Shown: positions 30,997 to 47,235 of the stretch, piece by piece
Position numbering within the stretch: the first letter of the stretch is position 1
Layout: each line of letters starts with the position of its first letter
NCBI GenBank assembly: GCA_965228345.1
Contig: CBDDHH010000004.1
Location: forward strand, 663,133-727,132
Direction: 5' to 3'
Length of the DNA stretch: 64,000 nucleotides
Source of the DNA: Alphaproteobacteria bacterium
Lineage (GTDB): Bacteria; Pseudomonadota; Alphaproteobacteria; UBA7985
Position numbers and translations under genes: made by a program
Notes under the pieces: generated by a model
Told to the model about the DNA's origin: nothing
Databases searched by the model: none
The model's input: the letters and a program-made list of their open reading frames with translations, nothing else

Positions 30997-31000
30997 GCTT

Positions 31001-31160: not shown

Positions 31161-31460
31161 GGTAGCTTTTGACTCGTAGAAGTGTTTTTTCAACTAGGTC
31201 GTATTGTGATTCGTATTTCCCGCAAACAGGAGATACCTATGGCCATAGCAATCACACGCGCAAACCATAGCGCTAAGGATTTAAGAAAGTTTGCAGCGCG
31301 GAGTAAGGATCCCAAAGTTTCGCGCCGGGTACTAGCCATAGCGATGCTTATTGAGGGTAGTTCTTGTAAGTTTGCCGGTGAATGCTACGGCATGGATCGC
31401 CAAACACTTTGTGATTGGGTTCATCGTTACAATCTCGAACAGCCCTCTGCATAAGGAAGG
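31150..31460 (+). mobile_element. IS630-family IS remnant: left TIR + truncated transposase N-terminus (HTH)
   Basis: ORF 31239..31454 MAIAITRANHSAKDLRKFAARSKDPKVSRRVLAIAMLIEGSSCKFAGECYGMDRQTLCDWVHRYNLEQ matches IS630-family N-terminal HTH regions. Preceded by ATACCAGCGGCGGTAGCTTTTGACTC, which resembles the MITE TIR. Confidence 0.65.
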
Positions 31461-31506: not shown

Positions 31507-31746
31507 GAGACCAGCGGCGATTTAAAATGACTCTTTTATTCGCTGGTATAAGGGCCGCGACTGCGGCCCCCGTAGCGGGCTCCAAGCCCGAAGGGCGTAG
31601 GGAACGCCTGCGCCAAAAACAAGCGGCCCCGAGATGAGCTAAGAAAGCGCCTCGGGGTATAAGCGAAGGGGCGGCGAAACGCGAAGCGTTTCTGCCGTGA
31701 GACATAAAACGGCTGAAAAAGTGTCAACTTTTTTCGCCGTTGGTAT
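31507..31746 (-). mobile_element. MITE copy R7
   Basis: Near-identical to R2. ...GTGTCAACTTTTTTCGCCGTTGGTAT terminus. Truncates the IS630 remnant. Confidence 0.8.
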
Positions 31747-31839
31747 TGGTTTTTTGTTTCTTGACCCAAGAATGCTCTTGCCTTCGACACACTTTTGCCG
31801 TCGGTACTTTAGGTGTTCGAGATTTTGGTGGAGGACTGG

Positions 31840-34608: not shown

Positions 34609-35526
34609 ATGAATAGATCATCTTTGCCGTGGCATCTGCTACAGAGTTTTTTGTCCTGCCTCGATCAGGGATCGCTGAGCGCGGCGGCGGCGCGCCTCAA
34701 GCTGAGCCAACCCACCCTTTCCCGGCACATTCGCGAGCTGGAAACCTTAATCCAGGGGCGTCTTTTCGTCCGGTCCCGCCAGGGTCTTCAGTTGACCACC
34801 CTGGGGCTAGAATTGGTTGAACCTGCGCGCGCCATGGCCGACGCTGCGGCCCAGATCAGCGCCCGACTGTCGGGAGCGGGGGCGGAGACAAGGGCGAGCG
34901 TACGCCTTACCGCCAGCCAGTACATGGCGACATTCTGGTTGCCCGAGATTCTCGTGGCCTTCCAGGCGCGTCACCCGCACATCCAGATCGAGCTGGTCGC
35001 CAACGATCAGACGCACAATCTGCTGCGGCGCGAGGCCGACATCGCGGTGCGCATGTTCCGGCCGACCCAAGATAGCCTGATCACACGGCACCTAGGCCAC
35101 ATCGATCTGTGCATGTTGACGACGCGCGCCTATTTGGCGACGCGCACGCCGCCGCAAACGCCCGAGGACTTGCGCGCCCATCGCCTGATTGGCGACGATC
35201 AACGCACCCTCATTATCGACGGCTTACGCGCCTATGGGTTGCGCTTTGGGCCCGAAGACTTTGCCTTACGTTGCGACGACCAAGTGACGGCGTTGCATTT
35301 GATCGCCGCAGGTGGGGGCATCGGTTTTGGCCAAGCGCGCCTTGCCGAGCGGTTTCCTAGCCTGATCGCCTTGCCCATCGGCGACGGCGCGCCGAAATTA
35401 CCGCTTTGGCTGACCGCCCACGAAGACTTGCGCAGCAATCGTGCCGTGCGGCTGCTCTATGACTTCTTGGCTGAGCAACTGGTTCAGGTGGTGATACCAG
35501 TTCTGCTTAACAAAGACTCCTTATGA
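34609..35526 (+). CDS. LysR family transcriptional regulator
   Basis: N-terminal HTH (LSCLDQGSLSAAAARLKLSQPTLSRHIRELE) plus LysR substrate-binding domain. Divergent from the oxidoreductase. Last ~10 codons are encoded by the MITE R8 terminus. Confidence 0.85.
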   Translation: MNRSSLPWHLLQSFLSCLDQGSLSAAAARLKLSQPTLSRHIRELETLIQGRLFVRSRQGLQLTTLGLELVEPARAMADAAAQISARLSGAGAETRASVRLTASQYMATFWLPEILVAFQARHPHIQIELVANDQTHNLLRREADIAVRMFRPTQDSLITRHLGHIDLCMLTTRAYLATRTPPQTPEDLRAHRLIGDDQRTLIIDGLRAYGLRFGPEDFALRCDDQVTALHLIAAGGGIGFGQARLAERFPSLIALPIGDGAPKLPLWLTAHEDLRSNRAVRLLYDFLAEQLVQVVIPVLLNKDSL

Positions 35527-35687
35527 ACTGGTGTAGGGCCGCGACTGCGGCCCCCGCAGCGGCCCCGAGACAAGCTAAGAAAGCGCCTCGGGGTATCAGC
35601 CAAGGCCCCGTCGGAGGCGAAACGCGAAGCGTTTCTGCCGTGAGACATAAAACGGCTGAAAATGTCAATTTTTAGCGGAGTTGGTAT
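35494..35687 (-). mobile_element. MITE copy R8
   Basis: ATACCAGTTCTGCTTAACAAAGACTCCTTATGAACTGGTGTAGGGCCGCGACTGCGG...GGAGTTGGTATTAG. Overlaps the LysR 3' end. Confidence 0.8.
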
Positions 35688-35689
35688 TA

Positions 35690-36302
35690 GGGTCCGTGGA
35701 CATTAGGGATTCCCATTTCTGCAAACTTGTGTTTCAAGCTTCCAAAACGGAGGTTTCAATGAACACAGATCGCTTTGTTGTCACAGATCAACTCTGGGAT
35801 AGGATTTCAGGGTTGATTCCAGGCCGCGATGGGGTTCGCGGTGTTACTGGAGAAGATAATCGTCTCTTCTTGGAGGCTGTGCTTTGGCGGGTGCGTGCAG
35901 GGCTCCCTTGGCGAGACTTGCCGCCAGAATTTGGCAAGTGGAATACTCAATTTCGCCGTTTCCGTCGATGGGCCGCAGCAGGTGTTTTTGAGAGACTTTT
36001 TGAAGCTCTAAACCAAGACCCCGACGTTGAATACGCTCTTATCGACGGCACTATGTTAAGCGTTCACCAGAAAGCCAGTGGCGCAAAAGGGGGGCTCAAA
36101 ATCAGTCCATTGGACGTTCAAGAGGTGGATTGACGACCAAGATCGTTGCCTTGGTTGAGGGCTTAGGGAACCTGGCCCGCTTCCTTCTGTTGCCTGGTCA
36201 AGCCCATGATATGCAAGGGGTCAAGCCACTCATAGAGGGCGTCTGTTTTGATGCTCTATTGGCTGACAAGGCTTTCGATGCAGACTGGCTTCTCGAAGAC
36301 TT
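35690..36302 (+). mobile_element. IS5-family (IS427-group) element, 3'-truncated: orfA (35759..36133) and N-terminal part of frameshifted orfB (36130..36300)
   Basis: orfA MNTDRFVVTDQLWDRISGLIPGRDGVRGVTGEDNRLFLEAVLWRVRAGLPWRDLPPEFGKWNTQFRRFRRWAAAGVFERLF (DUF4096-type). orfB fragment ...LARFLLLPGQAHDMQGVKPLIEG...ADKAFDADWL. The 5' ~200 bp is near-identical to the 54827.. copy. Truncated by MITE R9. Confidence 0.75.
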
Positions 36303-36493
36303 ATACCAACGGCGAAAAAAGCTGACACTTTTTCAGCCGTTTTATGTCTCACGGCAGAAACGCTTCGCGTTTCGCCGCCCCTTCGCTGATACCCCGAGGC
36401 GCTTTCTTAGCTCATCTCGGGGCCGCTACGGGGGCCGCAGTCGCGACCCTTATACCAGCGAATAAAAGAGTCATTTTAAATCGCCGCTGGTAT
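36303..36493 (+). mobile_element. MITE copy R9 (inserted into or abutting the IS427-like element)
   Basis: CTTATACCAACGGCGAAAAAAGCTGACAC...AAATCGCCGCTGGTATTATG. Confidence 0.8.
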
Positions 36494-36695
36494 TATGCCC
36501 CAGAACTTAACCCAATGGAGAATGTTTGGGCATATCTGCGCGCAAATAAACTCGCCGTAACTGTCTTCGACACTGTTGAGCAGATCGTCGAAAAGTGTGG
36601 GGATGCCTGGAACTTCTTCACCAATGACAAACCGCCTCTCATGTCAATCACACAAAGAAATTGGATACGCGTCAATTGATCCCGCCGTTGGTATA
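36494..36695 (+). mobile_element. IS630-family IS 3' remnant: transposase C-terminus + right TIR
   Basis: Encodes ...YAPELNPMENVWAYLRANKLAVTVFDTVEQIVEKCGDAWNFFTNDKPP, the (Y)SPELNPIE..W..LK end of IS630/Tc1-type DDE transposases. Terminates CCGCCGTTGGTATAAG, identical to MITE termini. Confidence 0.6.
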
Positions 36696-36723: not shown

Positions 36724-38163
36724 TTAGCTGCGCGCGATAGCGATGTTTTTTGTTTGAACGTAGTTCCAAAGCGCCTCGCGCCCTTTTTCGCGGCCATAGC
36801 CCGATTTACCATAGCCACCGAAGGGGGTTTCGACGCCGCCTGCAAACCATTCGTTTATAAAGACTTGGCCCGCGCGCAAACGACCCGCAATGGTCATGGC
36901 ACGATCCAGATCGCGGGTGAATACGCCGCCGACCAAGCCGTAGTCGGTCCCGTTGGCGATTTCCAAGGCTTCGCCTTCATGTCGGGCTTTCATGATCGAC
37001 AAAACAGGCCCGAACACTTCGGTGGTAGCGATTTCCATTTGGGGAGTGACGTCGGCAAACACAGTGGGTTGCAAAAAATGACCCGGGATGTTCAACTTGT
37101 GCCCACCTGCCACCAACCTTGCGCCCTCACTCTGAGCGCGCTGAATGAGGCCGAGGGCGCGGTCACACTGCGCATCAGAGATCAGGGCCCCCATATTGGG
37201 GCCAAAATCGGGACGGTCACGTCCAGGACCAACCGAAATCGACTTGGCCAAAGCACCTGCACGGGTCACCACATCCTCGTAGACGTCCTCCATCACAATC
37301 AGGCGCGATAGGGCCGAGCAAACTTGGCCTGCGCCGAAGATGAAACCCCAGCGCATGTCACTGGTGAGGGCGTCTAGGTCCGCGTCAGGATAGACGATCC
37401 CAGCCGATTTACCGCCAAGTTCTAAAACGCAAGGCACAACGTTTTGTGCCGCCGCCGTGGCAACTGCAATGCCCGTGGCAACCGACCCGGTAAAGACCAA
37501 CTGATTGATGCCTGCGTGACTCGCTAGAGCCGCGCCCGCGTCCTGTCCATGACCGCATATTAGATTAACTGCCCCCTTGGGCAACCCGACGGCCTCGGCC
37601 GCCAAGGCAAAGTACTTATGGGTCAGAGGGTCCAGCTCTGGCGATTTGACGACGCAGGCGTTGCCAGTGGCAAGGGCGGCAGAAAGCGAGCGCCCCGTCA
37701 TCTCCAATGGGTAGTTCCACGGGATGATCTGGGCGCTCACCCCCATGGGCTCATAGACCGTGAAGTCAAAGTATCCCTTGCCCAAAGGAATCGACCGCCC
37801 CTCCACAGTTTCTGCCTGGTTGCCGTAGTACTCAAAGTAGCGAGCTGTCCCCTCCACCTCGATCTGGGCTTCCCACAGGGGCTTGCCCGCTTCCTGAGTG
37901 AGCAAGGGGGCGATTTCCGATACATGGTCGCGCAACCAATCGCCCATTTGGCGGACCATACGACCGCGATCGCAGGGACGCATGTCGGACAAGACGCCGC
38001 TTTCGTGACAGGCGCGCGCGGCAGCAACGCCCTGGTCTATGTCTGCGGCCAGCCCGCGGGCTTGGCGCGCGAAGACCTGACCCGTGCCAGGGTCCTCAAC
38101 GTCGATCCAGCCCCCCGAGCCCCCAACAAACTGCCCGTCGATATAATTCAAGTATTTATCCAT
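36724..38163 (-). CDS. NAD(P)-dependent aldehyde dehydrogenase
   Basis: ELGGKSAGIV (catalytic Glu) and ...FIFGAGQVCSALSRLIV (Cys) ALDH motifs. 479 aa. Confidence 0.85.
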   Translation of the reverse strand: MDKYLNYIDGQFVGGSGGWIDVEDPGTGQVFARQARGLAADIDQGVAAARACHESGVLSDMRPCDRGRMVRQMGDWLRDHVSEIAPLLTQEAGKPLWEAQIEVEGTARYFEYYGNQAETVEGRSIPLGKGYFDFTVYEPMGVSAQIIPWNYPLEMTGRSLSAALATGNACVVKSPELDPLTHKYFALAAEAVGLPKGAVNLICGHGQDAGAALASHAGINQLVFTGSVATGIAVATAAAQNVVPCVLELGGKSAGIVYPDADLDALTSDMRWGFIFGAGQVCSALSRLIVMEDVYEDVVTRAGALAKSISVGPGRDRPDFGPNMGALISDAQCDRALGLIQRAQSEGARLVAGGHKLNIPGHFLQPTVFADVTPQMEIATTEVFGPVLSIMKARHEGEALEIANGTDYGLVGGVFTRDLDRAMTIAGRLRAGQVFINEWFAGGVETPFGGYGKSGYGREKGREALWNYVQTKNIAIARS

Positions 38164-39235
38164 TGTGCGCTTCCCTAATCCAGTCGTGCAAGGCCTTGAT
38201 TGAGTGTTCGGAGTTGACGCCGTTCTTGGGGTCTAGCACAAGGGGCCCAGGCCTGTAGCCGCGAGACTTGAGCCCCCTTTGCACCGATTCGATCAGGCCG
38301 ATGTCTTCCGCAACGGTCGTTTCGCGATCCTGGATCGCCAAGGCGCGGATGACGTCGGATTCTTGGCCCCCAGGGGTGTACCATCCGCGTTTTAGCAGAA
38401 CGTGTCCAGGGTCAATCGGCTCCCAATGGTAAGTGTTCAGGACATTGCCTGGATAGACCTGGAACGACACTGTGGGCCAGAGGTACCAAGACGAATAGCA
38501 ATCCGCGTAGTCGTTGGCGTCGAGATCGACGGGATAGGTCATGTCAGCCAAATTCTGACATTCAGTCGTATGTCGTAGGCAGTAGCCCTGCGGTTGAATA
38601 TCGTAAGTCGCAGGCTTAACCACGCCTTGGGAAAAGGTCGGATGGTTGATCGTGCAGTGGTAGCACTCCGAATAGTTCTCTACCGACACTTTCCAATTAC
38701 AGGCCTCCTGCACCTCCACCCATTCCAGGGGTTTGAGTTCATCAATGTTGGGCACGAACGCCTTTAGCTGCGCGCGTACCCCAGGGAACCAGGCGTCCAT
38801 GGGCGCGGCTTCGGGGTCCAAATTGACAAAGAGGAAACCGTGAAAATCCTCCACCTGAACCGCGGTGAGGCAAATCTGCGTGCGGTCCAGTCCCACGACG
38901 GCTTTCAGGTTGGGACCCTTGAGCAGTTCGCCCGTCAACTTGTAGGTCCAGGCATGGTAGGGACAGACCAACACGGAGGCATGGCCGCTGCCCGCAACCA
39001 ACTGGTGCGCGCGGTGCTGGCAGACATTGTAGTAACAATGGATCGACATATCGCGGTCGCGCACGAGGATCAGAGATTCCCCCGCAACCTCCACCGTATG
39101 ATAGTCCCCTGGGCGTTCGATCACCGATTTGTGCGCGGCAAAGATCCAGGTGCTGGTGAAGACGCGCTCTTGCTCATGGGCCCAGGCTGTATCGGAGAGG
39201 TAGTAGCGCGGCTCGAGCGATGTGATCACACCCAT
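38156..39235 (-). CDS. Rieske (2Fe-2S) non-haem iron oxygenase alpha subunit (GbcA/CntA/choline-monooxygenase-like)
   Basis: Rieske motif CQHRAHQL...CPYHAW. Mononuclear-iron region with ECYHCTINHP. 359 aa. No reductase partner adjacent. Confidence 0.75.
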   Translation of the reverse strand: MGVITSLEPRYYLSDTAWAHEQERVFTSTWIFAAHKSVIERPGDYHTVEVAGESLILVRDRDMSIHCYYNVCQHRAHQLVAGSGHASVLVCPYHAWTYKLTGELLKGPNLKAVVGLDRTQICLTAVQVEDFHGFLFVNLDPEAAPMDAWFPGVRAQLKAFVPNIDELKPLEWVEVQEACNWKVSVENYSECYHCTINHPTFSQGVVKPATYDIQPQGYCLRHTTECQNLADMTYPVDLDANDYADCYSSWYLWPTVSFQVYPGNVLNTYHWEPIDPGHVLLKRGWYTPGGQESDVIRALAIQDRETTVAEDIGLIESVQRGLKSRGYRPGPLVLDPKNGVNSEHSIKALHDWIREAHNG

Positions 39236-40152
39236 GGCGATTGATCCTCCACATAGATTCCCAGGCGATGCCGCCGTTCATGGAATCGGTCTATATCCTC
39301 AATGGTCCTAGCGGGTGCTGCGGCAATGACAAAGGCCATGAGCGTCTCAAGAAAGGCCGTCAACGCCACGGTCGAGGTGAAAAACTGCGGGCCGCTAACG
39401 GGCACTTCAAATCGATGCTTCGCGTCAGTGAAGTGCGGGGCAGCGGGCGAGTCCGAGACGGCAATTAGATCCAGGCCTTGTTCGTGGGCTGCTGCCGCTG
39501 CCTCGACCACCTCGCGTCGGTAGGGCTTGAACGTCATGGCAATCAAGGTATCGCCCGCGCCCGCGCGCACCAGGCCATCGACGGGCTGGGAACCGTCGCG
39601 CGGCAAAGCGACAATATTGTCCAGGGCCATGGCCCCAAGATAGGCAAAGTTCAGCGCCACAGGATTGGCCATGCCAACGCCCAGAACGTAGACCTTGCGC
39701 GCAGCGAGGATGGTTTGCGCCGCCGATTGCAAGGCGGTGGTGGTGGCGCTAACCTCTAGCTGGCGCAGCGTTGCTGCAGCCGCGCTCAGCACCTCATACT
39801 TGAGCGTATCGAGCGTTCCCGCCGCCGTGCGCGCTTGCAAAGCCAAGGCCTGGCGCGAAGGTTGAAAGGACGCGCGCGCCAGGTGCGTCTTGAACGCCTT
39901 GAACCCATCGTACCCCAAGACGCGCGACAACCGCACGAAGGTATTGGGCGTGACGCCCGCCGCAGCGGCGGCCTCTCGCGTTGAGGCCAGTGAAACCCGA
40001 TCAGGATTTTCCAAGGCGTAGGTTGCCGCCTTACGCTGTTCTAAACTGAGATGGGGCAGCTGCGCCCGCAAAGAGTCTTGCGGCGAATTCGGGACGTTTG
40101 TGCTGTTCATGGTTGACGAGGGTACATTTGTACCATAAAACCTGCAAGTCAC
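39226..40152 (-). CDS. MurR/RpiR family transcriptional regulator (HTH_6 + SIS domain)
   Basis: N-terminal HTH LSLEQRKAATYALENPDRVSLASTREAAAAAGVTPNTFVRLSRVLGYDGFKAF. C-terminal SIS domain. Alternative start MNSTN at ~40110. Confidence 0.7.
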   Translation of the reverse strand: MTCRFYGTNVPSSTMNSTNVPNSPQDSLRAQLPHLSLEQRKAATYALENPDRVSLASTREAAAAAGVTPNTFVRLSRVLGYDGFKAFKTHLARASFQPSRQALALQARTAAGTLDTLKYEVLSAAAATLRQLEVSATTTALQSAAQTILAARKVYVLGVGMANPVALNFAYLGAMALDNIVALPRDGSQPVDGLVRAGAGDTLIAMTFKPYRREVVEAAAAAHEQGLDLIAVSDSPAAPHFTDAKHRFEVPVSGPQFFTSTVALTAFLETLMAFVIAAAPARTIEDIDRFHERRHRLGIYVEDQSPWV

Positions 40153-40215
40153 ATCGCGGTCCCTTTTTCAAACTTTGGACTCCACGATTGCAGAAGTGTC
40201 GCCCAAGAAAGGCAA

Positions 40216-42654
40216 GTGACTATGGCCGAACTCCCCTCGCACGCGCGTGTTGTTATTATCGGCGGCGGCATTATGGGCTGCGGCGTGGCCTATCATCTGG
40301 CGCATGAGGGTTGGACAGACCTGGTCTTGTTGGAAAAGGCCGAACTGACCTCGGGGTCCACTTGGCACGCGGCGGGGCAAATCACCCATTCCACCTCCTC
40401 CTACACCCTTGGGGCCTGCGTCGGATACAACATCGACCTCTATCGCACGGTTTTGGAACAAGAGACGGGCCAATCCTGCACGTGGCACGGCTGCGGTTCG
40501 CTGCGGCTTGCCTATACATCGGACGAGGTGGATTGGCTGCTGCAAACTCTTTCGGTGGGGCGCGCGCTTGGGTTTCCTATGGAACTGCTGACGCCCGCGC
40601 AAATTCGCGACCAGCATCCGTTCTATAAACTCGACGGGGTTTTGGCGGCGCTCCATACCCCCGACGACGGCCACGTCGATCCTGCGGGTCCTGCCTTTGC
40701 GCTCGAGAAGGGCGCGCGCCAACTGGGAACCAAAACGATCAAGCGCTGTTTGGCCGAGGCTGTTACGCAGCTGCAGTCGGGGGAGTGGCAAGTCACGACC
40801 AACAAAGGCACGATTCGGTGTGAGCATGTGGTCAACGCGGGCGGCACCTATGCGCGGCAAGTCGCCCTGACCTCGGGCTACGATCTGCCCGCCACCTCCA
40901 TGACCCACCACTATTTGGTGACCGACGCGGTGCCCGAGTTCCAGGATTTGCCCCGCGAATTGCCCGTAGTGCGCGATGATCGGCAGGTGTCGGGCTACAT
41001 AAGGATGGAGCAAAAATCGGGTCTGATCGGCATTTACGAAAAGACCAACCCCAATACAGTTTGGCAGGATTGGTGCCCGTGGGAAGCGGAAAACGAACTG
41101 TTCGAGGCTGACTACGACCGTATCATGCCTTGGCTGGAAAACGCCCTGGACCGCATGCCCGTTTTTGCCGACCTGGGCATCAAGCGCGAGGTCCACGGCG
41201 CCATCTCGCACCCGCCCGACGGCAATCCCCTGATCGGGCCGGCGCCAGGCCTGCAAAATTACTGGGTCAATGCCGGCTGCCAAATCGGGATTGGCTGGGG
41301 GCCAGGCCTCACGCGGGAACTGGCGCGCTGGATGGTCCACGGCGCGGCGGACCTGAACATGCGCGATTTTGACCCCCGCCGCTACGGCGCGTTTGCCGAT
41401 CGAACCTACCAGATCGAAAAAGCCAAGGAGGACTACGTTCTCCGTCACGAAATCCCCTTCCCCCATTTCAATCGCCATGCCCATCGCCCCGTCAAACCTT
41501 CGCCCCTCTACGAAGTTTTGAAGGCCAAAGGCGCGGTCTTCGAAGAAGTCTATGGCTGGGAACGCCCACGCTGGTTCGCCAAAAACGGCGTCGCTCAAGA
41601 GGATCACTACAGTTTCGGCCGCGCGCCATGGTTCGACTTGGTCATGGCGGAGGTCAAGGCCGTGCGCAAGGCGGTGGGCGTGATCGATATCTCTGCCTTC
41701 GCCAAGATTGAAGTTTCGGGCCCAGGGGCCTTGGCGCTGATCGACCGTCTGATTCCCAACCGCGTGCCCAGAGTGGGCCGGGTCGGCCTGACCCACATGC
41801 TCGGGAATTCGGGCCGAATTGAATTGGAAACAACGTTGGTGACCCTGGCTGAGGATCGCTTTTACCTCGTTTGCGCGGCCTTCTTTGAGCAACGCTTGCT
41901 CGACCATCTGACCAAGTATGCGAGCGGCGAAGACGTGACCATCGCCAACCTATCGGAAGCCTACGGCGCCTTGGCGCTGTCGGGCCCACGCGCGCGGGAT
42001 GTTTTAGGGCAAGTGACCGACCACAGCTTGGTCGCGCCCGCGTTCAAATGGCTGGACGCCAAGGAAATTCGCATCGCAGGCCAAAGGTGCTGGGCTTTGC
42101 GCCTGTCGTACGCTGGGGAATTGGGCTGGGAGCTCCATGTCCCCCGCGACGGCTTGGTCGCGGTCTATCACGCTCTTTCGCAAGCGGGCACCGCCCACGG
42201 ACTGACCGACTACGGATCCTTTGCCATGAACATCTTGCGCATGGAAAAAATGTTCAAGGGCTCGGGTGAGTTGACCAACGAAGTGACCCTGCCCGAGGCC
42301 GATGTCATGCGGTTTGTGAAGATGGATAAGGAAGCCTGGGTCGGCCGCGCGGCGACGGACGCGGCCCTGCGCGCACCGTTGCGCTATGTTTGTGTCTATT
42401 TGGAAATTGACAGCAATGGCAAGGCGGACGGCAACGGCGGCGAAACCGTCCTGATGGCGGGTCAAGCCGTGGGGTCGGTCTCCTCCATCGTCTATTCCCC
42501 AACCCTCGATAAGGGGCTCGCTTTTGCCTATGTAAGTCCCGAGGCCGCGCGCACGGGCCAAAGGCTGGAGGTCGTGATTATGAACGACCCGCGCCCTGCC
42601 GTCGTGCGCGATCAGCCTGCCTACGATCCCGCCAGCGAACTGCCACGCGCATGA
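40216..42654 (+). CDS. Dimethylglycine/sarcosine dehydrogenase-family protein (FAD-dependent oxidoreductase fused to GcvT-like folate-binding domain)
   Basis: VVIIGGGIMGCGVAYHLA FAD motif. ~812 aa, as expected for DMGDH-type enzymes. C-terminal aminomethyltransferase-like domain. Confidence 0.8.
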   Translation: MTMAELPSHARVVIIGGGIMGCGVAYHLAHEGWTDLVLLEKAELTSGSTWHAAGQITHSTSSYTLGACVGYNIDLYRTVLEQETGQSCTWHGCGSLRLAYTSDEVDWLLQTLSVGRALGFPMELLTPAQIRDQHPFYKLDGVLAALHTPDDGHVDPAGPAFALEKGARQLGTKTIKRCLAEAVTQLQSGEWQVTTNKGTIRCEHVVNAGGTYARQVALTSGYDLPATSMTHHYLVTDAVPEFQDLPRELPVVRDDRQVSGYIRMEQKSGLIGIYEKTNPNTVWQDWCPWEAENELFEADYDRIMPWLENALDRMPVFADLGIKREVHGAISHPPDGNPLIGPAPGLQNYWVNAGCQIGIGWGPGLTRELARWMVHGAADLNMRDFDPRRYGAFADRTYQIEKAKEDYVLRHEIPFPHFNRHAHRPVKPSPLYEVLKAKGAVFEEVYGWERPRWFAKNGVAQEDHYSFGRAPWFDLVMAEVKAVRKAVGVIDISAFAKIEVSGPGALALIDRLIPNRVPRVGRVGLTHMLGNSGRIELETTLVTLAEDRFYLVCAAFFEQRLLDHLTKYASGEDVTIANLSEAYGALALSGPRARDVLGQVTDHSLVAPAFKWLDAKEIRIAGQRCWALRLSYAGELGWELHVPRDGLVAVYHALSQAGTAHGLTDYGSFAMNILRMEKMFKGSGELTNEVTLPEADVMRFVKMDKEAWVGRAATDAALRAPLRYVCVYLEIDSNGKADGNGGETVLMAGQAVGSVSSIVYSPTLDKGLAFAYVSPEAARTGQRLEVVIMNDPRPAVVRDQPAYDPASELPRA

Positions 42655-43991
42655 GCCTGACCGATCTTTCCCCAGCTTATCCCACCCACGACGCAGATTG
42701 GGTTTCTGAGACCCATGCTGAGGCCTATGTCCAGTCTTGGTCAAAGCAGGGCATCCGCCCCCGGGTCATCGCAGGCGGCCAGGGGTCCTGGTTCTGGGAT
42801 TCCGACGGCAAACGCTACCTCGATTTTCAATCGCAGCTGGTCAATCTCAACTTGGGTCACCAACACCCCAAGATCGTCCAAGCCATCAAAGACCAGGCCG
42901 ATAAGCTGTGCTATATCGGCCCAGCCATGGGCAACGACGCGCGCTCCGAACTCGCGGCGCTGATCCGTGACATTACACCCGCCAATATCGTGAGCACATT
43001 CTTTACCACGGGCGGTGCTGCCGCCAATGAGACGGCGGTCCGTCTCGCCCGCCACTATACAGGTCGGCAGAAGATCATTGCCCGCTATCGTTCCTACCAT
43101 GGCGCCACGGGTGGCGCCCTGACGTTGACGGGGGACCCACGCCACCACTTAACCCGGGGGGACATGCCAGGGGTGGTGCGGATGTTCGACCCCTACCGCC
43201 GCGATTCCGCAGACCCCATTTATCAGGGCGGGCCGCACCTTGAGGAAATCCTCATGTACGAAAACCCCGAGACGGTGGCGGCGCTGATCTTGGAAACCGT
43301 CGTTGGAACCAATGGGATTTTGGTGCCCCCCGACGGCTATCTGCAATCTCTCGCCCAGGTATGCCGCAAATACGGAATCTTGCTGATTATGGACGAGGTC
43401 ATGGCGGGCTTCGGGCGCACGGGCAAGTGGTTTGCCGTGGACCATTGGGACCTGCAACCCGACATGATCACCGCCGCGAAAGGCATCAATTCGGGCTATG
43501 TGCCCCTGGGCACGCTGAGCCTCAGCGCCGACCTGACGCGCTGGTTGCACGACACGCCCTTCCCGGGCGGGCAAACTTATGCGGGCCATCCACTCGCCTG
43601 CGCCTCGGGGGTTGCCGCCATTCGGGCCATGCAAGCCGAAAGCGTTCTGGAGAACGCCGTCACAATGGGCTTGCTCATGCGCACCGAGCTTACAGCCATG
43701 ATTGATCGCCACCCCATCCTGGGCGAAGTTCGCGGCAAGGGCTTGTTCAATGGAATCGAGTTGGTAAAAAATCGGGAAACAGGGGAGCCATTGGTTCCCT
43801 TTGCCGCCAAGGGCGCGGCGGCGGCCCCCATGACGGCCATGATGGCCGCTGCGATGGATCGCGGACTTTACCTTTCATTCTTTTCTAACGTCATTCGTCT
43901 GACACCGCCGCTGAACATCAGCGAGGTAGACTTAAAGTATGGACTTGCGATTTTGGACGAAGTTCTGAGCGTAGGGGATCAATATGTTTGA
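42651..43991 (+). CDS. Class III (omega) aminotransferase, PLP-dependent
   Basis: LIMDEVMAGFGRTGKWFA and ITAAKGINSGYVPLG (PLP-Lys) motifs. 446 aa. Confidence 0.8.
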   Translation: MSLTDLSPAYPTHDADWVSETHAEAYVQSWSKQGIRPRVIAGGQGSWFWDSDGKRYLDFQSQLVNLNLGHQHPKIVQAIKDQADKLCYIGPAMGNDARSELAALIRDITPANIVSTFFTTGGAAANETAVRLARHYTGRQKIIARYRSYHGATGGALTLTGDPRHHLTRGDMPGVVRMFDPYRRDSADPIYQGGPHLEEILMYENPETVAALILETVVGTNGILVPPDGYLQSLAQVCRKYGILLIMDEVMAGFGRTGKWFAVDHWDLQPDMITAAKGINSGYVPLGTLSLSADLTRWLHDTPFPGGQTYAGHPLACASGVAAIRAMQAESVLENAVTMGLLMRTELTAMIDRHPILGEVRGKGLFNGIELVKNRETGEPLVPFAAKGAAAAPMTAMMAAAMDRGLYLSFFSNVIRLTPPLNISEVDLKYGLAILDEVLSVGDQYV

Positions 43992-44040
43992 TCGGAACCA
44001 AACGAAGACACATGGATGTGGGTCGTTCCATGATGCAGTT

Positions 44041-44238
44041 ATACCAACGGTCATAAAAAGTGACCTTTTCATGACCGTTTCGTGTCTCACGGCAGAAACG
44101 CTTCGCGTTTCGCCTCCGACGGGGGCCTTCGCTTATACCCCGAGGCGCTTTCGCGCCATTCTCGGGGCCGCTACGTGGGCCGCAGTCGCGGCCCTCATAC
44201 CAGCGATCATAAGAGTCATTTATAATTGCCGCTGGTAT
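44041..44238 (+). mobile_element. MITE copy R10
   Basis: ATACCAACGGTCATAAAAAGTGACC...ATTGCCGCTGGTATTAG. Its terminal TTA forms the folD stop codon on the opposite strand. Confidence 0.8.
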
Positions 44239-45098
44239 TAGAATGTCCACCCCAGTTCAACCTGACGGCGATGGGCCTTGAGCGCGTTTTGCATGAGCAT
44301 AGAGACCGTGACAGGGCCGACTCCGCCGGGGACGGGCGTGACCCAAGAAGCCATGTCCAGCGCCTCGTCCATCTTCACATCCCCGACAAGGCCGTCAGCG
44401 GTCTGGTTGATGCCAACGTCGATGACGGCGGCGCCGGGCTTGATCATGTCCCCGCCGATCAGCCCAGCCTTTCCCACCGCGACCACGAGGGCATCGGCAC
44501 GGCGGGAATGCGACGCAACAGATCGGGTCATATGGTGACAGACCGTCACCGTCGCGCCTTCCGCCACGAGCATGAGGGCGACGGGCTTGCCGACAATTTC
44601 TGAATGACCGATCATCACAACCTCCAACCCCTTCAGGGTCAGGCCCGTGGACTTGAGCAGTTCGACCGACGCCGCCGCCGTGCAGGGCAGCAGCGCATGG
44701 TCCCCATAAACGATATTGCCGATTGAGGCTGGGTTCATTCCCTCGACGTCTTTGAGGGGGTGAATCGCGCCTTGCAAGGTACGAGGGTTTAAGTGCGCAG
44801 GTACGGGACGCTGTAAAATAATACCTGTGACTTTTGGGTCATCGTTCATCGCCACCAGGCGCGCCTTGGCCTGATCCTGGCTGATATGACCGTTCCAATA
44901 CTGTTCGTCGAACGGAATGCCCACACGCTCGGCCAAGCGGCGCTGGTTACGAATATAAACTTTCACCTCCTCCACCGCACCAATAGCGATGGAACAGAGC
45001 TTCCCGATTGGGGGCAGCGCCACCAAGTCCGCTTGAACTTGTGACATAAGGCGGTCGCGCAGCGGGGCACCGCGCAGCAGTCGAGGGTCATGATCCAT
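44238..45098 (-). CDS. folD: Bifunctional methylenetetrahydrofolate dehydrogenase/methenyltetrahydrofolate cyclohydrolase
   Basis: ...IILQRPVPAHL...VVMIGHSEIVGKPVALML...VIDVGINQ...PVPGGVGPVTVSML are conserved FolD blocks. Confidence 0.85.
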   Translation of the reverse strand: MDHDPRLLRGAPLRDRLMSQVQADLVALPPIGKLCSIAIGAVEEVKVYIRNQRRLAERVGIPFDEQYWNGHISQDQAKARLVAMNDDPKVTGIILQRPVPAHLNPRTLQGAIHPLKDVEGMNPASIGNIVYGDHALLPCTAAASVELLKSTGLTLKGLEVVMIGHSEIVGKPVALMLVAEGATVTVCHHMTRSVASHSRRADALVVAVGKAGLIGGDMIKPGAAVIDVGINQTADGLVGDVKMDEALDMASWVTPVPGGVGPVTVSMLMQNALKAHRRQVELGWTF

Positions 45099-45109
45099 AG
45101 GAGCTTCTT

Positions 45110-45348
45110 ATACCAACGGCGAAAAAAGTTGACACTTTTTCAGCCGTTTTATGTCTCACGGCAGAAACGCTCCGCGTTTCGCCTCCCCTTCGCTGATACC
45201 CCGAGGTGCTTTCTTAGCTCATCTCGGGGCCGCGTGTTTTTGGCGCGGGCGTTCCCTGCGCCCTTTGGGCTTGGAGCCCGCTACGGGGGCCGCAGTCGCG
45301 GCCCTTATACCAGCGAATAAAAGAGTTATTTTAAATCGCCGCTGTTAT
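45110..45348 (+). mobile_element. MITE copy R11
   Basis: CTTATACCAACGGCGAAAAAAGTTGACAC...TTAAATCGCCGCTGTTATTAG, with an extra internal GC-rich hairpin. Confidence 0.8.
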
Positions 45349-45500
45349 TAGCGCAACTCTCAAGAAAGTTGACGCCTTTTGCGAACGTCCGCCGAGGCCA
45401 CGGGGAACCACGACTTGATGCCACAAGTATGGCCGCCGGACTCTGAACGTCCGCGCAACATAAGGATGACAGCGTCACGTTCCCAACCTAAACACACACT

Positions 45501-46622
45501 ATGGTTTCCTTTACCTTAGAAAAAACCGACGGACGGGCCCGGATGGGGCGCTTAGAAACGGTTCATGGTTCCATCGAAACACCCGTATTCATGCCGGTTG
45601 GGACGGCAGGAACGGTCAAGGCCATGACGGCGAGGTCGGTTCGTGCTACGGGCGCGCAGATCATTCTTGGGAATACCTACCACCTCATGCTCCGTCCTGG
45701 GGCAGATCGCGTGGAACGTTTGGGTGGATTGCACACTTTGATGGATTGGCCCGGGCCAATTTTGACCGACTCCGGAGGTTTTCAGGTCATGTCACTGCGA
45801 GGACTGCGGGACATGAACGAAGACGGCGTCACTTTCAAAAGTCACATCGATGGTTCCTTGCATCAACTAACCCCCGAAATTTCCATGGACGTCCAACGCA
45901 AACTTGATGCCACCATCTCCATGGCCTTTGATGAATGCACCCCCTACCCCGCGACCAAGGATCAAGCGGCAAAATCCATGGTGCTTTCCATGCGCTGGGC
46001 TAAGCGGTCGAAAGCTGCCTTTGTGCCGCGGCCTGGATATGGCTTGTTTGGAATCGTTCAGGGTTCCGTCTTTGCCGATCTGCGGCAAGAATCTATCGAG
46101 CGGATCTTGCCCCTGGAAACCGAGGGATTGGCCATTGGCGGATTGGCGGTAGGGGAGGGGCAAGCGCGCATGTTCGAAACTCTAGATGTCACGACACCGC
46201 GGCTGCCGAAGAACAAGCCACGCTATTTGATGGGCGTGGGAAAACCCGACGATCTGGTTGGGGCGGTTGCGCGGGGGATTGATATGTTTGACTGTGTATT
46301 ACCTACGCGTTCGGGCCGCACCGGCCAGGCCTGGACATGGCGAGGGCAAGTCAACGTACGCAATGCACGGCACAAAGACGATCCGCGACCCTTGAGCGAG
46401 GGATGCGCCTGTCCCGCGTGCCAACGACACTCGCGCGCCTATCTACATCATTTGACCCGCGCCGATGAAATCTTGGGGGCTATGTTGCTGACTTGGCACA
46501 ATGTGCAGTTTTTTCAGGACTTAATGCAAGCGATGCGCGCGGCGATCAGCGAGGCATGCTTTTCCGAATTTGAAGCAAGCTTTGCCGCAACATATGGCAG
46601 TGGTGATGTAACGCCCATCTAG
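45501..46622 (+). CDS. tgt: Queuine tRNA-ribosyltransferase
   Basis: ...[18 protein letters not shown]..., DSGGFQV, and zinc site [17 protein letters not shown]. Confidence 0.9.
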
Positions 46623-46655
46623 ACAAGGCCCTCTAATCCAATCAAACGGGACTCT

Positions 46656-46895
46656 ATGGCTGATATCGACACAAACCAAGCCCGCCTAGGGGCCGCCCTC
46701 AAGGCCCTTGAACTACGGATCAGTGTGATGGCCAGCGGGGATCAGGCCATTGGCGCCGAAAACCAGAACCTGATCGCAAAAATTGAAACTTTGGAGGCCG
46801 AGATAGCGCGCTTGCGCCAAGTAGGCACCCAAGCCCTTGAGGAAATCGACGTGGTCCTTGACCACTTGGACAAATGGGAAGCGGACAATGGTTAA
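46656..46895 (+). CDS. DUF4164 coiled-coil protein (ZapA-associated, ZauP-like)
   Basis: 79-aa coiled-coil protein immediately upstream of and overlapping zapA, the arrangement conserved in alphaproteobacteria. Confidence 0.6.
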   Translation: MADIDTNQARLGAALKALELRISVMASGDQAIGAENQNLIAKIETLEAEIARLRQVGTQALEEIDVVLDHLDKWEADNG

Positions 46896-47229
46896 GGTGA
46901 CAGTTGAAATCAATGGTCGCGGCTATGATATGTTTGTCGACAAGGGACAGGAGGCCCATGTTCTACAATTGGGGGAAAAAGTGGGCCGACAGGTCAAGGC
47001 CATGATCAATCAAGTCGGTCAGGTTGGGGAAGGGCGCCTCATCCTCATGGCCGCCCTGCAATTAGCTGACGAAGCTTGGGAGCTAAAAGAACGGTTGCGA
47101 CAGCACGAAGGGGCCGCGACGCAGGCTCCACCCAACGCCGAACTTGTGGAACAGGCCCAAGCTTACGTCGCCGACGCCTATGGTGATTTAGCTGATAAGC
47201 TTGAAACCATGGTTGAAGCTCTCGGTTAA
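46888..47229 (+). CDS. zapA: Cell division protein ZapA
   Basis: MVKVTVEINGRGYDMFVDKGQEAHVLQLGEKVGRQVKAM... is a typical ZapA N-terminal domain followed by a coiled coil. Confidence 0.75.
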   Translation: MVKVTVEINGRGYDMFVDKGQEAHVLQLGEKVGRQVKAMINQVGQVGEGRLILMAALQLADEAWELKERLRQHEGAATQAPPNAELVEQAQAYVADAYGDLADKLETMVEALG

Positions 47230-47235
47230 ACCTGT

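What the first reader, a model, noticed from the sequence alone, without database searches (positions are those of the whole stretch)
36724..43991. Divergent catabolic cluster: RpiR regulator - Rieske oxygenase (no reductase) - ALDH, opposite a DMGDH-like dehydrogenase and a class III aminotransferase
The gene content points to degradation of a methylated or quaternary amine (betaine/carnitine-like). A GbcA/CntA-type Rieske demethylase/oxygenase, an aldehyde dehydrogenase, and an 812-aa dimethylglycine/sarcosine-dehydrogenase-family enzyme all fit this reading.

Two things are unusual. The Rieske alpha subunit has no adjacent ferredoxin-reductase partner. The regulator is RpiR/SIS type, which usually senses phosphosugars, rather than a GbdR/AraC or LysR type.

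The cluster is flanked by MITEs and IS debris, suggesting horizontal acquisition.
Basis: inference. Interest (0 to 1): 0.5.

Follow-up and report, generated by a model that had tools for sequence, protein, structure and literature searches.

The report
Uncharacterised quaternary-amine breakdown gene cluster
This is the minimal version of a widespread but unstudied marine bacterial gene module that most likely breaks down an N-methylated (betaine-like) compound, using a carnitine-oxygenase-type iron enzyme, a folate-linked demethylase, an aminotransferase and an aldehyde dehydrogenase under an unusual sugar-sensor-type regulator.

Summary
All five genes are real, intact and at the stated coordinates. 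They form two divergent, translationally coupled operons: rpiR-Rieske-ALDH and DMGDH-aminotransferase.

The Rieske protein is not a GbcA/Stc2-type demethylase or an aromatic dioxygenase. Its closest characterised relative over its full length is carnitine monooxygenase CntA. It keeps every "group Va" quaternary-ammonium hallmark, but all six carnitine-contacting residues differ, so the substrate is another quaternary amine.

The DMGDH-like protein is a complete FAD plus folate enzyme. The aminotransferase is 43% identical to a characterised taurine:2-oxoglutarate aminotransferase.

The DMGDH / RpiR / Rieske core recurs in more than 25 genomes. Orthologues of the aminotransferase and the ALDH were found mostly (aminotransferase) or only (ALDH) inside this module. 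A GTACA-N2-TGTAC palindrome lies upstream of rpiR in 22 of 27 loci.

The RpiR SIS domain lacks the canonical phosphate-binding loop. No reductase lies in the 64-kb window or in most related loci.

Best reading: stepwise oxidative N-demethylation, then transamination and aldehyde oxidation. The substrate is unknown, and no paper describing the module was found.

The MITE/IS flanks exist but occur throughout the window. A separate signal does suggest recent recombination of the cluster core.

The parts
36724..38163 (-). NAD(P)-dependent aldehyde dehydrogenase (479 aa), last gene of the rpiR-Rieske-ALDH operon. Its start overlaps the Rieske stop by 8 nt.
   Evidence: Pfam Aldedh, E 8e-145. The best NCBIfam hits are betaine-aldehyde and aminobutyraldehyde dehydrogenases, but far below their cut-offs (384.8 vs 668.6 bits). 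Orthologues at 68-83% identity sit in the same module in L015, L085, L086, L089 and L091.
38156..39235 (-). Rieske non-haem-iron oxygenase alpha subunit (359 aa), CntA-type (group Va). Predicted to act on a quaternary ammonium compound.
   Evidence: Pfam Rieske plus Ring_hydroxyl_A. Matches CntA 6y8j at E 4.7e-63 over residues 10-355, but Stc2 at 1.5e-29 over residues 6-216 only. Conserved residues: Rieske ligands C72/H74/C91/H94, Y188, E190, C191/C194, and iron ligands H193/H198/D311. The carnitine-contacting residues are changed. Foldseek top 13 hits are all CntA.
39226..40110 (-). RpiR/MurR-family regulator (HTH_6 plus SIS), probably 294 aa starting at the ATG at 40110 (the ORF lister gave a GTG at 40152). 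Its SIS domain is non-canonical.
   Evidence: Pfam HTH_6 and SIS. The start is inferred from the conserved 'CAA(T/C)CATGA' context and the 294-aa gene call in L001. The loop T-F-K-P-Y-R-R-E replaces the S-x-S-G-x-T phosphate loop and is conserved in 18 orthologues.
40121..40134 (.). Candidate operator: the palindrome GGTACAAATGTACC in the 111-nt divergent promoter region (40111-40221), 11 nt upstream of the rpiR ATG.
   Evidence: It is the only exact GTAC-N4-GTAC site in the 64-kb window. A match to GTACAAATGTAC with at most 2 mismatches lies within about 150 nt of the rpiR start in 22 of 27 loci. Background frequency is 0.06 per kb.
40222..42654 (+). Dimethylglycine/sarcosine-dehydrogenase-family flavoenzyme (810 aa from the ATG at 40222; 812 aa from the GTG at 40216). 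It is an FAD-dependent amine oxidoreductase with a folate-binding aminomethyltransferase domain.
   Evidence: Pfam DAO, FAO_M, GCV_T and GCV_T_C. Matches human DMGDH 5l46 at E 5e-156 over its full length, and the SGSTWHAAG flavinylation motif is conserved. It is adjacent to the Rieske gene in 20 of 24 close loci and is replaced by an OYE/TMADH-type flavoprotein in L011 and L019.
42651..43991 (+). Class III (omega-type) PLP aminotransferase (446 aa). Its start overlaps the DMGDH stop (ATGA).
   Evidence: Pfam Aminotran_3, E 3e-91. Passes the NCBIfam PRK06062 subfamily cut-off (530.7 vs 472 bits). 43% identical to taurine:2-oxoglutarate aminotransferase 6jix, E 2.6e-105. Orthologues at 73-84% identity lie at the end of the DMGDH operon in L082-L086; a fifth orthologue (L087, 75%) lies outside the module.
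44238..45098 (-). FolD (methylene-THF dehydrogenase/cyclohydrolase), convergent with the aminotransferase gene. Probably helps oxidise the C1 units, but it may simply be a housekeeping neighbour.
   Evidence: Pfam THF_DHG_CYH and THF_DHG_CYH_C. The same position is seen in L001 but not in other lineages.
44039..44243 (.). MITE-like intergenic repeat marking the right boundary of the cluster. A further copy lies at 45107-45353.
   Evidence: Repeat families D1-D5 and inverted pairs I7 and I11.
35681..36499 (.). Left boundary: a truncated IS5-family transposase gene (35681-36133) plus a MITE-like repeat (36296-36499). Synteny with the sister genome L001 ends here.
   Evidence: DUF4096 and the NCBIfam IS5 model covering only profile positions 2-110 of 258. 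Repeats. blastn against L001.

Best explanation
The five genes form the minimal version of a conserved catabolic module for a quaternary, N-methylated ammonium compound. The likeliest substrates are an omega-amino-acid or sulfonate betaine, such as beta-alanine betaine, gamma-butyrobetaine or taurobetaine.

**Proposed route**
1. The CntA-type Rieske oxygenase hydroxylates a carbon next to the quaternary nitrogen. Here this is proposed to be a methyl carbon, releasing formaldehyde and leaving a tertiary amine. Electrons come from a reductase encoded elsewhere.
2. The DMGDH-family flavoenzyme removes the remaining N-methyl groups and passes them to tetrahydrofolate. FolD, next door, can oxidise these C1 units further.
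3. The class III aminotransferase converts the resulting primary amine to an aldehyde.
4. The ALDH oxidises the aldehyde to an acid.

**Regulation.** The RpiR-type protein binds the GGTACAAATGTACC palindrome between the two operons. It probably responds to the substrate or an intermediate through a SIS domain that no longer has a phosphate-binding loop.

**Shown:** the enzyme families, active-site hallmarks, operon structure, conserved synteny and conserved palindrome.

**Inferred:** the order of steps, the regiochemistry of the Rieske reaction, repression by RpiR, and the identity of the substrate.
For: **Rieske protein**
- Full-length homology to CntA (E 4.7e-63; Foldseek top hits).
- The cation-pi Tyr188, bridging Glu190, Cys pair and metal ligands are all retained. 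Their roles are defined in PMC7948474 and PMC10952381.
- The six carnitine-contacting residues are replaced by residues invariant within this family, including R283 and D303.

**Partner flavoenzyme**
- A complete DMGDH-family enzyme lies beside the Rieske gene in 20 of 24 close loci and 4 of 4 distant loci.
- In L011 and L019 it is replaced by an OYE/TMADH-type amine dehydrogenase.
- This mirrors the Rieske-plus-flavin-demethylase pairing in proline-betaine catabolism (HpbB1C1 plus HpbA; PMC3950512).

**Aminotransferase and ALDH**
- The aminotransferase is 43% identical to a characterised taurine:2-oxoglutarate aminotransferase.
- Aminotransferase orthologues were found inside this module in four of the five look-ups (the exception is L087), and ALDH orthologues in both look-ups.
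- Start and stop codons overlap within each operon.

**Regulation**
- The palindrome is conserved in 22 of 27 loci.
- The SIS loop is changed throughout the family.
Against: - Every characterised group Va enzyme (CntA, choline monooxygenase, OxyBAC) oxidises a non-methyl carbon. The known N-demethylases (GbcA/BmoA, Stc2) are group Vb, with Asn in place of the Tyr (PMC7948474). Demethylation by this enzyme would therefore be new for its class.
- The ALDH gene is translationally coupled to the Rieske gene, as in cnt operons. This fits an aldehyde-forming Rieske reaction equally well.
- The expanded versions of the module carry 1-3 HpbD/cis-3-hydroxyproline-dehydratase-like enolase-superfamily genes, an MDR reductase, and an Amdase-like plus sulfotransferase-like pair. 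A simple achiral omega-betaine does not explain these.
- No conserved transporter or reductase was found.
- No experimental data exist for any member.
Confidence: 0.45

Rival explanations
1. C-N cleavage first (CntA-like chemistry). The Rieske enzyme hydroxylates a non-methyl carbon next to the quaternary nitrogen. The product is an aldehyde that still carries, or is released together with, an N,N-dimethylamino compound.

For a cyclic N,N-dimethyl betaine of the proline-betaine type, this opens the ring. The route would then be: dimethylamino-aldehyde, oxidised by the ALDH to an N,N-dimethylamino acid, demethylated by the DMGDH-like enzyme to an amino acid, and converted by the aminotransferase to a 2-oxo acid.
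For: - Group Va sequence hallmarks, and the known chemistry of all Va enzymes.
- The Rieske and ALDH genes overlap, and this pairing recurs.
- The best family matches of the ALDH are amino-aldehyde and betaine-aldehyde dehydrogenases.
- The DMGDH-like protein is close to genuine dimethylglycine dehydrogenases, which act on an N,N-dimethyl alpha-amino acid.
- HpbD-type betaine epimerase homologues occur in the expanded modules.
Against: - There is no precedent for oxidative ring opening of a betaine by a Rieske enzyme.
- With an acyclic trimethylammonium substrate the product would be trimethylamine, leaving the invariably linked DMGDH-like enzyme and the aminotransferase without substrates.
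- If the end product were glutamate, a dedicated aminotransferase would be unnecessary.
- The window and its nearest relatives lack the enolase-superfamily genes.
Confidence: 0.25
2. A choline to glycine route. The Rieske enzyme acts like plant choline monooxygenase (choline to betaine aldehyde). The ALDH is a betaine-aldehyde dehydrogenase. The DMGDH-like enzyme is a true dimethylglycine dehydrogenase. The glycine betaine to dimethylglycine step is encoded elsewhere.
For: - Choline monooxygenase is group Va.
- The top NCBIfam hits for the ALDH are betaine-aldehyde dehydrogenases.
- The DMGDH-like protein matches human DMGDH at E 5e-156.
- MttB-family methyltransferase genes lie near the module in L010, L025 and L026.
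Against: - The ALDH scores 384.8 bits against a 668.6-bit equivalog cut-off.
- The aminotransferase, present in most modules examined, would have no role, and neither would the epimerase-like genes.
- No BHMT or GbcA-type step is present.
Confidence: 0.08
3. A plain carnitine (or gamma-butyrobetaine) monooxygenase orthologue that releases trimethylamine, with its malic/succinic semialdehyde dehydrogenase. On this reading the DMGDH/aminotransferase operon is an unrelated neighbour.
For: CntA is the closest characterised homologue. One JGI record names a family member 'carnitine monooxygenase subunit'. In cnt operons an ALDH follows the oxygenase.
Against: - Identity to CntA is only about 34%.
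- All six carnitine-contacting residues are replaced.
- There is no CntB-type reductase.
- The DMGDH-like gene is linked in 24 of 28 loci across classes and phyla, with a shared divergent promoter and palindrome. It is therefore not a chance neighbour.
Confidence: 0.07

Closest known systems
Carnitine monooxygenase CntA/CntB with malic semialdehyde dehydrogenase (Acinetobacter baumannii, E. coli YeaW/YeaX)
   Same: - Beta-subunit-free Rieske oxygenase of about 360-370 aa.
- Full-length homology, with the best PDB match by both sequence and fold.
- Cation-pi Tyr, bridging Glu, Cys-x-x-Cys pair and 2-His-1-Asp iron site all conserved.
- An ALDH gene lies directly downstream.
   Different: - About 34% identity.
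- All carnitine-contacting residues are replaced.
- No CntB-type FMN/2Fe-2S reductase nearby.
- Always linked to a DMGDH-family gene, an aminotransferase and an RpiR regulator instead of a LysR regulator and a BCCT transporter.
Betaine N-demethylation pathways: GbcAB plus DgcAB (Pseudomonas), Stc2 (Sinorhizobium), HpbB1C1 plus HpbA (Paracoccus, Rhodobacter)
   Same: The pathway logic matches. A Rieske oxygenase deals with the quaternary nitrogen and a flavoprotein removes the next methyl group. HpbD-type enolase-superfamily genes accompany the expanded versions of this module.
   Different: - Those Rieske enzymes are group Vb (Asn instead of Tyr, about 410-430 aa) and match this protein only in the Rieske domain.
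- They have adjacent reductases.
- Their regulators are AraC (GbdR) or LysR (HpbR).
- Their second demethylase is OYE-type, not DMGDH-type, although L011 and L019 here do carry an OYE-type enzyme.
Dimethylglycine dehydrogenase / dimethylglycine oxidase family (human DMGDH 5L46, Arthrobacter DMGO 1PJ5)
   Same: Same four-domain architecture, the same covalent-FAD histidine motif, and a folate-binding domain.
   Different: The substrate is probably not dimethylglycine, because the downstream enzymes are an omega-type aminotransferase and an ALDH rather than sarcosine oxidase. The demethylating 4-methylaminobutyrate oxidase of nicotine catabolism (recalled from memory, not tested here) is a functional precedent for an N-methyl omega-amino acid substrate.
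Taurine:2-oxoglutarate aminotransferase (Toa, Bifidobacterium kashiwanohense, PDB 6JIX)
   Same: 43% identity over 424 aligned residues. Same NCBIfam subfamily (PRK06062).
   Different: The genomic context differs, with no sulfoacetaldehyde acetyltransferase or reductase nearby. The substrate was not tested and could be taurine, beta-alanine, GABA or another omega-amine.
RpiR/MurR/HexR/NanR phosphosugar-responsive regulators
   Same: HTH_6 plus SIS architecture. Divergently transcribed from a target operon, with a palindromic site.
   Different: The canonical S-x-S-G-x-[ST] phosphate-binding loop is replaced by a conserved T-x-[KRQ]-P-[YF]-R-x-E loop. The regulated genes are for amine catabolism, not sugar catabolism.

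Membership tests
Group Va quaternary-ammonium Rieske oxygenases (CntA, choline monooxygenase, OxyBAC) | Rieske CxH...CxxH cluster ligands and a 2-His-1-carboxylate mononuclear iron site | tested here: met
   C72/H74/C91/H94 and H193/H198/D311 align with CntA C86/H88/C106/H109 and H208/H213/D323.
Group Va quaternary-ammonium Rieske oxygenases (CntA, choline monooxygenase, OxyBAC) | Aromatic residue (Tyr or Phe) at the CntA-203 position for the cation-pi contact, plus the bridging Glu205 | tested here: met
   Y188 and E190 are present and invariant in 17 family members. The definition comes from PMC7948474.
Group Va quaternary-ammonium Rieske oxygenases (CntA, choline monooxygenase, OxyBAC) | Cys-x-x-Cys pair beside the iron site | tested here: met
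   C191/C194 correspond to CntA C206/C209 (PMC10952381).
Carnitine monooxygenase CntA proper | Carnitine-binding residues Y225, F258, N270, Y295, Y315 and F319 | tested here: not met
   They are replaced by T210, Y247, Q259, R283, D303 and T307.
Carnitine monooxygenase CntA proper | Adjacent CntB-type reductase (FMN plus plant-type 2Fe-2S) | tested here: not met
   None is present in the 64-kb window, and none is adjacent in about 25 orthologous loci. Isolated exceptions of other types: a GR-type reductase in L085, an FMN_red gene in L086, and a PDR-type gene 8 kb away in L006.
Group Vb N-demethylases (GbcA/BmoA, Stc2) | Asn at the CntA-203 position, and full-length similarity including the catalytic domain | tested here: not met
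   The residue is Tyr188. The GbcA equivalog scores 148.7 bits against a 670-bit cut-off and covers residues 6-201 only. Stc2 aligns over residues 6-216 only.
Aromatic ring-hydroxylating dioxygenases (groups I-IV) | Full-length alpha-subunit similarity, usually with a beta subunit and a bridging Asp | tested here: not met
   Only the N-terminal roughly 200 residues align (E about 1e-25). The bridging residue is Glu. There is no beta-subunit gene.
DMGDH/SARDH/DMGO family | DAO FAD domain, FAO_M, GCV_T folate-binding domain, GCV_T_C, and the flavinylation histidine | tested here: met
   All four domains are present. The SGSTWHAAG motif aligns with that of human and rat DMGDH.
DMGDH/SARDH/DMGO family | Dimethylglycine as the substrate | not testable with these tools
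   No NCBIfam DMGDH equivalog was matched. The genomic context argues for a different N-methyl amine.
RpiR/MurR family | N-terminal HTH_6 and C-terminal SIS domain | tested here: met
   Pfam HTH_6 at 4.6e-10 and SIS at 8.8e-11.
RpiR/MurR family | Canonical SIS phosphate-binding loop, S-x-S-G-x-[ST] | tested here: not met
   The sequence aligned to NanR 4IVN 'AVSSSGSTKE' is 'AMTFKPYRRE'. The variant loop is conserved in 18 orthologues. That the canonical loop binds phosphate is from my own knowledge of SIS domains.
Class III aminotransferases, PRK06062 subfamily (includes Toa) | Score above the NCBIfam subfamily cut-off | tested here: met
   530.7 bits against a 472-bit cut-off. 43% identity to Toa 6JIX.
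Betaine-aldehyde dehydrogenase (equivalog) | Score above the equivalog cut-off | tested here: not met
   384.8 vs 668.6 bits (TIGR01804) and 376.1 vs 593 bits (PRK13252).

The most novel reading that the evidence does not exclude
The module encodes an undescribed aerobic pathway for a common marine quaternary amine that currently has no known catabolic genes. Candidates include beta-alanine betaine, taurobetaine, gamma-butyrobetaine and a hydroxyproline-type betaine.

On this reading the pathway has three new features:
- It is started by a CntA-class oxygenase with new regiochemistry for its class: either N-demethylation or ring opening.
- It is controlled by a new subclass of RpiR/SIS regulators that sense a betaine-like ligand rather than a phosphosugar.
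- It is served by a non-dedicated electron donor.
Probability: 0.45. Interest if true: 0.75.

Novelty: new variant of a known kind. Interest (0 to 1): 0.58.

Why it matters
Methylated amines and betaines are major osmolytes and major carbon, nitrogen and C1 sources in the sea. They are also precursors of climate-active methylamines.

This module occurs in abundant pelagic Roseobacter-group bacteria; one Planktomarina-type ALDH orthologue is indexed in 600 blocks of the collection. It also occurs in Arenicellales, Rhodospirillales, Kiloniella and an actinomycete MAG, yet no paper in the held library describes it.

Identifying its substrate would do three things:
- add a missing route to marine nitrogen and C1 budgets;
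- show whether "CntA-like" genes counted in ocean metagenomes really signal trimethylamine production;
- test the proposed rule that group Va Rieske enzymes do not demethylate.

The regulator would also widen the known ligand range of SIS domains.

Tried and rejected
**Literature.** The six aimed at the module itself (Rieske/betaine/RpiR, group V Rieske, butyrobetaine/Roseobacter, beta-alanine betaine, cntA in marine metagenomes, RpiR plus amines) found no description of it. One of these was too broad to be useful.

**Reductase.** Pfam scans of essentially all large ORFs in the window and a Fer2/FNR motif scan of the window and 30 loci found none. A tblastn search with the Kiloniella GR-type reductase found it only in L085 and in a distant Streptomyces locus.

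**Transporter.** No conserved transporter was found. EamA genes occur in L001, L010, L011 and L026, and an ABC system occurs only in L013.

**Taurine link via the TauE/SafE gene at 31813-32652.** Rejected as evidence. It lies beyond the IS5 remnant, past the synteny break with L001, and is not conserved.

**Promoter and terminator scan of the cluster.** Nothing above the shuffled expectation.

**Source organism.** The exact-sequence look-ups failed for the window's Rieske protein and for the 100%-identical ALDH.

**AlphaFold model of the Rieske protein.** Only moderate quality (pLDDT 72.6, poor for residues 191-225 and 326-359). It was used only for the fold-level comparison, not for reading the substrate pocket.

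**Glycine betaine and carnitine as substrates.** Considered and rejected; see the rival explanations.

Full report
**Observation**

The ORF list and Pfam/NCBIfam scans confirm the five genes at the stated coordinates:
- ALDH, 36724-38163 (-), Aldedh E 8e-145
- Rieske oxygenase alpha subunit, 38156-39235 (-), Rieske plus Ring_hydroxyl_A
- RpiR-type regulator, 39226-40152 (-), HTH_6 plus SIS
- 812-aa DAO/FAO_M/GCV_T/GCV_T_C protein, 40216-42654 (+)
- class III aminotransferase, 42651-43991 (+)

Within each strand the genes overlap by 8, 10 and 4 nt. The unit is therefore two divergent, translationally coupled operons.

Comparison with orthologous loci indicates slightly different true starts. 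RpiR probably starts at the ATG at 40110 (294 aa), and the flavoenzyme at the ATG at 40222 (810 aa). This leaves a 111-nt control region.

FolD (44238-45098, -) and Tgt follow on the right.

**The Rieske protein**

Against the PDB, the only full-length match is carnitine monooxygenase CntA (6y8j, E 4.7e-63, residues 10-355 of 359). Stachydrine demethylase Stc2 (1.5e-29) and the aromatic dioxygenases (about 1e-25) align only with the N-terminal Rieske domain. The NCBIfam GbcA equivalog scores 148.7 bits against a cut-off of 670, again over the N-terminal half only.

An AlphaFold model of moderate quality (pLDDT 72.6) returns CntA as its 13 best Foldseek hits, then Stc2, then aromatic dioxygenases.

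I mapped the residues that Quareshy et al. define for CntA (PMC7948474 and PMC10952381) onto the alignment.
- Conserved: the Rieske ligands, the iron ligands (H193, H198, D311), the bridging Glu (E190), the Cys pair (C191/C194) and the cation-pi Tyr (Y188).
- Changed: all six residues that hold the rest of carnitine. The replacements are Y225 to T210, F258 to Y247, N270 to Q259, Y295 to R283, Y315 to D303 and F319 to T307.

The new residues, including R283 and D303, are invariant across 17 family members at 64-96% identity.

The protein is therefore a "group Va" quaternary-ammonium oxygenase whose substrate is not carnitine.

**The other enzymes**

*Flavoenzyme.* It matches human and rat dimethylglycine dehydrogenase over its whole length (E 5e-156) and Arthrobacter DMG oxidase (1e-82). 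It keeps the SGSTWHAAG flavinylation motif. It is not a bare GcvT paralogue.

*Aminotransferase.* It passes the NCBIfam PRK06062 subfamily cut-off. It is 43% identical over 424 aligned positions to the characterised taurine:2-oxoglutarate aminotransferase 6JIX.

*ALDH.* Its best family hits are betaine-aldehyde and aminobutyraldehyde dehydrogenases, but at about half the equivalog cut-offs. Its substrate cannot be named.

**Conservation**

A scan of one genome per species returned 80 loci.
- Among the 24 loci whose Rieske protein is 56-96% identical, 20 have the DMGDH-like gene immediately upstream and divergent, and 18 have the RpiR gene between them.
- All four loci at 39-47% identity, including an Actinomycetota MAG, keep all three genes.
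- In L011 and L019 the DMGDH-like gene is replaced at the same position by an OYE/TMADH-type flavoprotein. This is a non-orthologous swap between two kinds of amine-demethylating flavoenzyme.

I then started from the aminotransferase and the ALDH instead.
- Aminotransferase orthologues at 73-84% identity lie inside the same module in four of five look-ups: Shimia isoporae, a Rhodobacteraceae genome, Kiloniella sp., and a metagenome contig 84% identical to the window.
- The fifth aminotransferase orthologue (L087, 75%) sits in a different quaternary-amine island, with choline sulfatase, BKACE and another Rieske gene.
- ALDH orthologues at about 69% identity lie inside the module in both look-ups: Planktomarina temperata and an Octadecabacter-type MAG. 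That ALDH is indexed in 600 blocks of the collection.

The fullest version of the module reads: CMD - ALDH - (sulfotransferase-like) - (Amdase-like) - Rieske - RpiR <> DMGDH - (MDR reductase) - (cupin) - (1-3 enolase-superfamily genes) - aminotransferase.

The window and its nearest relatives (L001 at 96%, L086 at 84%) carry the minimal form.

The enolase-superfamily genes belong to the HpbD / cis-3-hydroxyproline-dehydratase subgroup.

**Regulation**

The control region contains the perfect palindrome GGTACAAATGTACC (40121-40134), 11 nt upstream of the rpiR ATG. It is the only GTAC-N4-GTAC site in the 64 kb.

A match with at most 2 mismatches lies within about 150 nt of the rpiR start in 22 of 27 loci. 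The background frequency is 0.06 per kb.

In the SIS domain, the stretch that aligns with the canonical Ser/Thr-rich loop of Vibrio NanR (AVSSSGSTKE) reads AMTFKPYRRE. A T-x-[KRQ]-P-[YF]-R-x-E loop is conserved in all 18 orthologues aligned. That the canonical loop binds the sugar phosphate is my own knowledge of SIS domains.

The regulator is therefore probably not a phosphosugar sensor. The real ligand is unknown.

**Missing reductase**

Pfam scans of essentially all sizeable ORFs of the window and a motif scan found no FNR-type, PDR-type or GR-type reductase and no ferredoxin.

The same holds for the related loci, with scattered exceptions of three different kinds:
- a GR-type reductase after the aminotransferase gene in Kiloniella
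- an FMN_red gene at the same place in L086
- a PDR-type gene 8 kb away in L006

The oxygenase evidently relies on an electron donor encoded elsewhere. This is a family trait, not a local deletion.

**Mechanism**

Two readings fit most of the data.

*Main reading (0.45).* The Rieske enzyme removes the first methyl group from a quaternary nitrogen. The DMGDH-type enzyme removes the rest onto THF. The aminotransferase converts the primary amine to an aldehyde, and the ALDH oxidises it. Arguments for:
- It gives every core gene a job.
- It explains the near-constant Rieske-flavoenzyme pairing.
- It parallels the Hpb pathway (PMC3950512).

The taurine-type aminotransferase points to omega-betaines such as beta-alanine betaine, taurobetaine or gamma-butyrobetaine.

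*Main objection.* All characterised group Va enzymes oxidise a non-methyl carbon, and the known demethylases are group Vb.

*Rival (0.25).* The Rieske enzyme keeps Va chemistry. C-N cleavage at a non-methyl carbon of a cyclic N,N-dimethyl betaine would give a dimethylamino-aldehyde for the adjacent ALDH, and then an N,N-dimethylamino acid for the DMGDH-like enzyme. This reading fits the HpbD-like genes of the expanded modules. It has no precedent, and it leaves the aminotransferase weakly explained.

*Less likely.* A choline-monooxygenase/BADH reading (0.08) and a plain carnitine monooxygenase reading (0.07).

**Horizontal acquisition**

The flanking repeats are real. The same 200-245-nt modular element occurs at 12 or more intergenic sites across the window and also in the sister genome L001. 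The window carries four intact transposase genes elsewhere. G+C content of the cluster is ordinary. The flanks therefore say little.

A different comparison is informative. Against L001, third-codon-position identity is:
- 0.85-0.91 for Rieske, RpiR, DMGDH and the aminotransferase
- 0.72 for ALDH, 0.73 for FolD, 0.67 for Tgt and 0.68 for GidA

Synteny also ends just past the ALDH gene, at the MITE and IS5 remnant. The cluster core was therefore probably exchanged by recombination between close relatives more recently than its surroundings diverged. This rests on a single genome pair.

**Verdict**

The cluster is the minimal form of a widespread, conserved and apparently uncharacterised quaternary-amine catabolic module. 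Its distinguishing features are:
- a CntA-class oxygenase
- a folate-linked demethylase
- a dedicated aminotransferase and ALDH
- a non-canonical RpiR regulator with a conserved operator
- no dedicated reductase

The substrate and the regiochemistry of the first step remain open. They can be tested directly.

Noticed in passing
window 1088-1290, 1536-1779, 3974-4172, 13889-14114, 27684-27830, 30998-31196, 31508-31775, 35483-35665, 36296-36499, 44039-44243, 45107-45353, 50743-51038, 58688-58886, 61765-61815, 63590-63802: A modular MITE/REP-like intergenic repeat of about 200-245 nt, with internal hairpins (for example ATACCAGCGG...CCGCTGGTAT). It occupies most intergenic gaps of the window in both orientations. 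Copies also occur in the sister genome L001.
   Followed up: partly
window 36724-49131 compared with L001: Third-codon-position identity to the sister genome is 0.85-0.91 for Rieske, RpiR, DMGDH and the aminotransferase, but 0.67-0.73 for ALDH, FolD, Tgt and GidA. This suggests recent homologous exchange of the cluster core. Synteny ends just past the ALDH gene.
   Followed up: partly
window 4965-5873, 35681-36133, 55115-56230, 57614-58468, 59896-61131: High insertion-sequence load: four apparently intact transposase genes (DDE_Tnp_4, two DDE_Tnp_1, and one Mutator/IS256 type) plus a truncated IS5 gene. The segment 35688-35921 is 98% identical to 54830-55063.
   Followed up: partly
window 28465-30996: A TRAP-type DctP solute-binding protein gene with no adjacent membrane components. 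It sits directly upstream of a fused hydroxyethylthiazole kinase / thiamine-phosphate synthase (ThiM-ThiE) gene, which hints at binding of a thiamine precursor.
   Followed up: no
window 6269-11074: A DctP gene, a 321-aa ORF with no Pfam match (7506-8471), and an 867-aa DctM-type protein with three DctM stretches (a fused or duplicated TRAP membrane component).
   Followed up: no
window 51694-54447: A 917-aa histidine kinase whose N-terminal half is a sodium:solute symporter (SSF) domain, a CbrA-like transporter-sensor architecture.
   Followed up: no
window 2437-3969: An RPE65-family carotenoid or stilbene cleavage oxygenase homologue (E 1e-84), flanked by MITE-like repeats.
   Followed up: no
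L009-L011, L019, L089-L091 (for example L089 7435-9004): In many relatives, an Amdase-like gene (about 277 aa; a weak Pfam match in L010, none recorded in L089-L091) and a Sulfotransfer_5-like gene (about 247 aa) follow the Rieske gene. In L089-L091 they lie between Rieske and ALDH with overlapping reading frames. In L019 an APS-kinase-domain gene precedes the pair. Their role in an amine-catabolic operon is unexplained.
   Followed up: partly
L006 4902-5498, L082 3125-3721, L010 15044-16333, L010 17889-19448: Expanded modules also carry a DMSP-lyase-like cupin, a DddP-like M24 protein (273 bits against a cut-off of 600), AcuI-like MDR reductases, and nearby MttB-family methyltransferases. Together these suggest a link to onium-propionate-type compounds.
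   Followed up: no
window 31813-33587: A TauE/SafE-family anion exporter ORF overlaps the following APH-family phosphotransferase ORF by about 210 nt, so the APH start is probably mis-set. Neither gene is conserved next to the module in L001.
   Followed up: no
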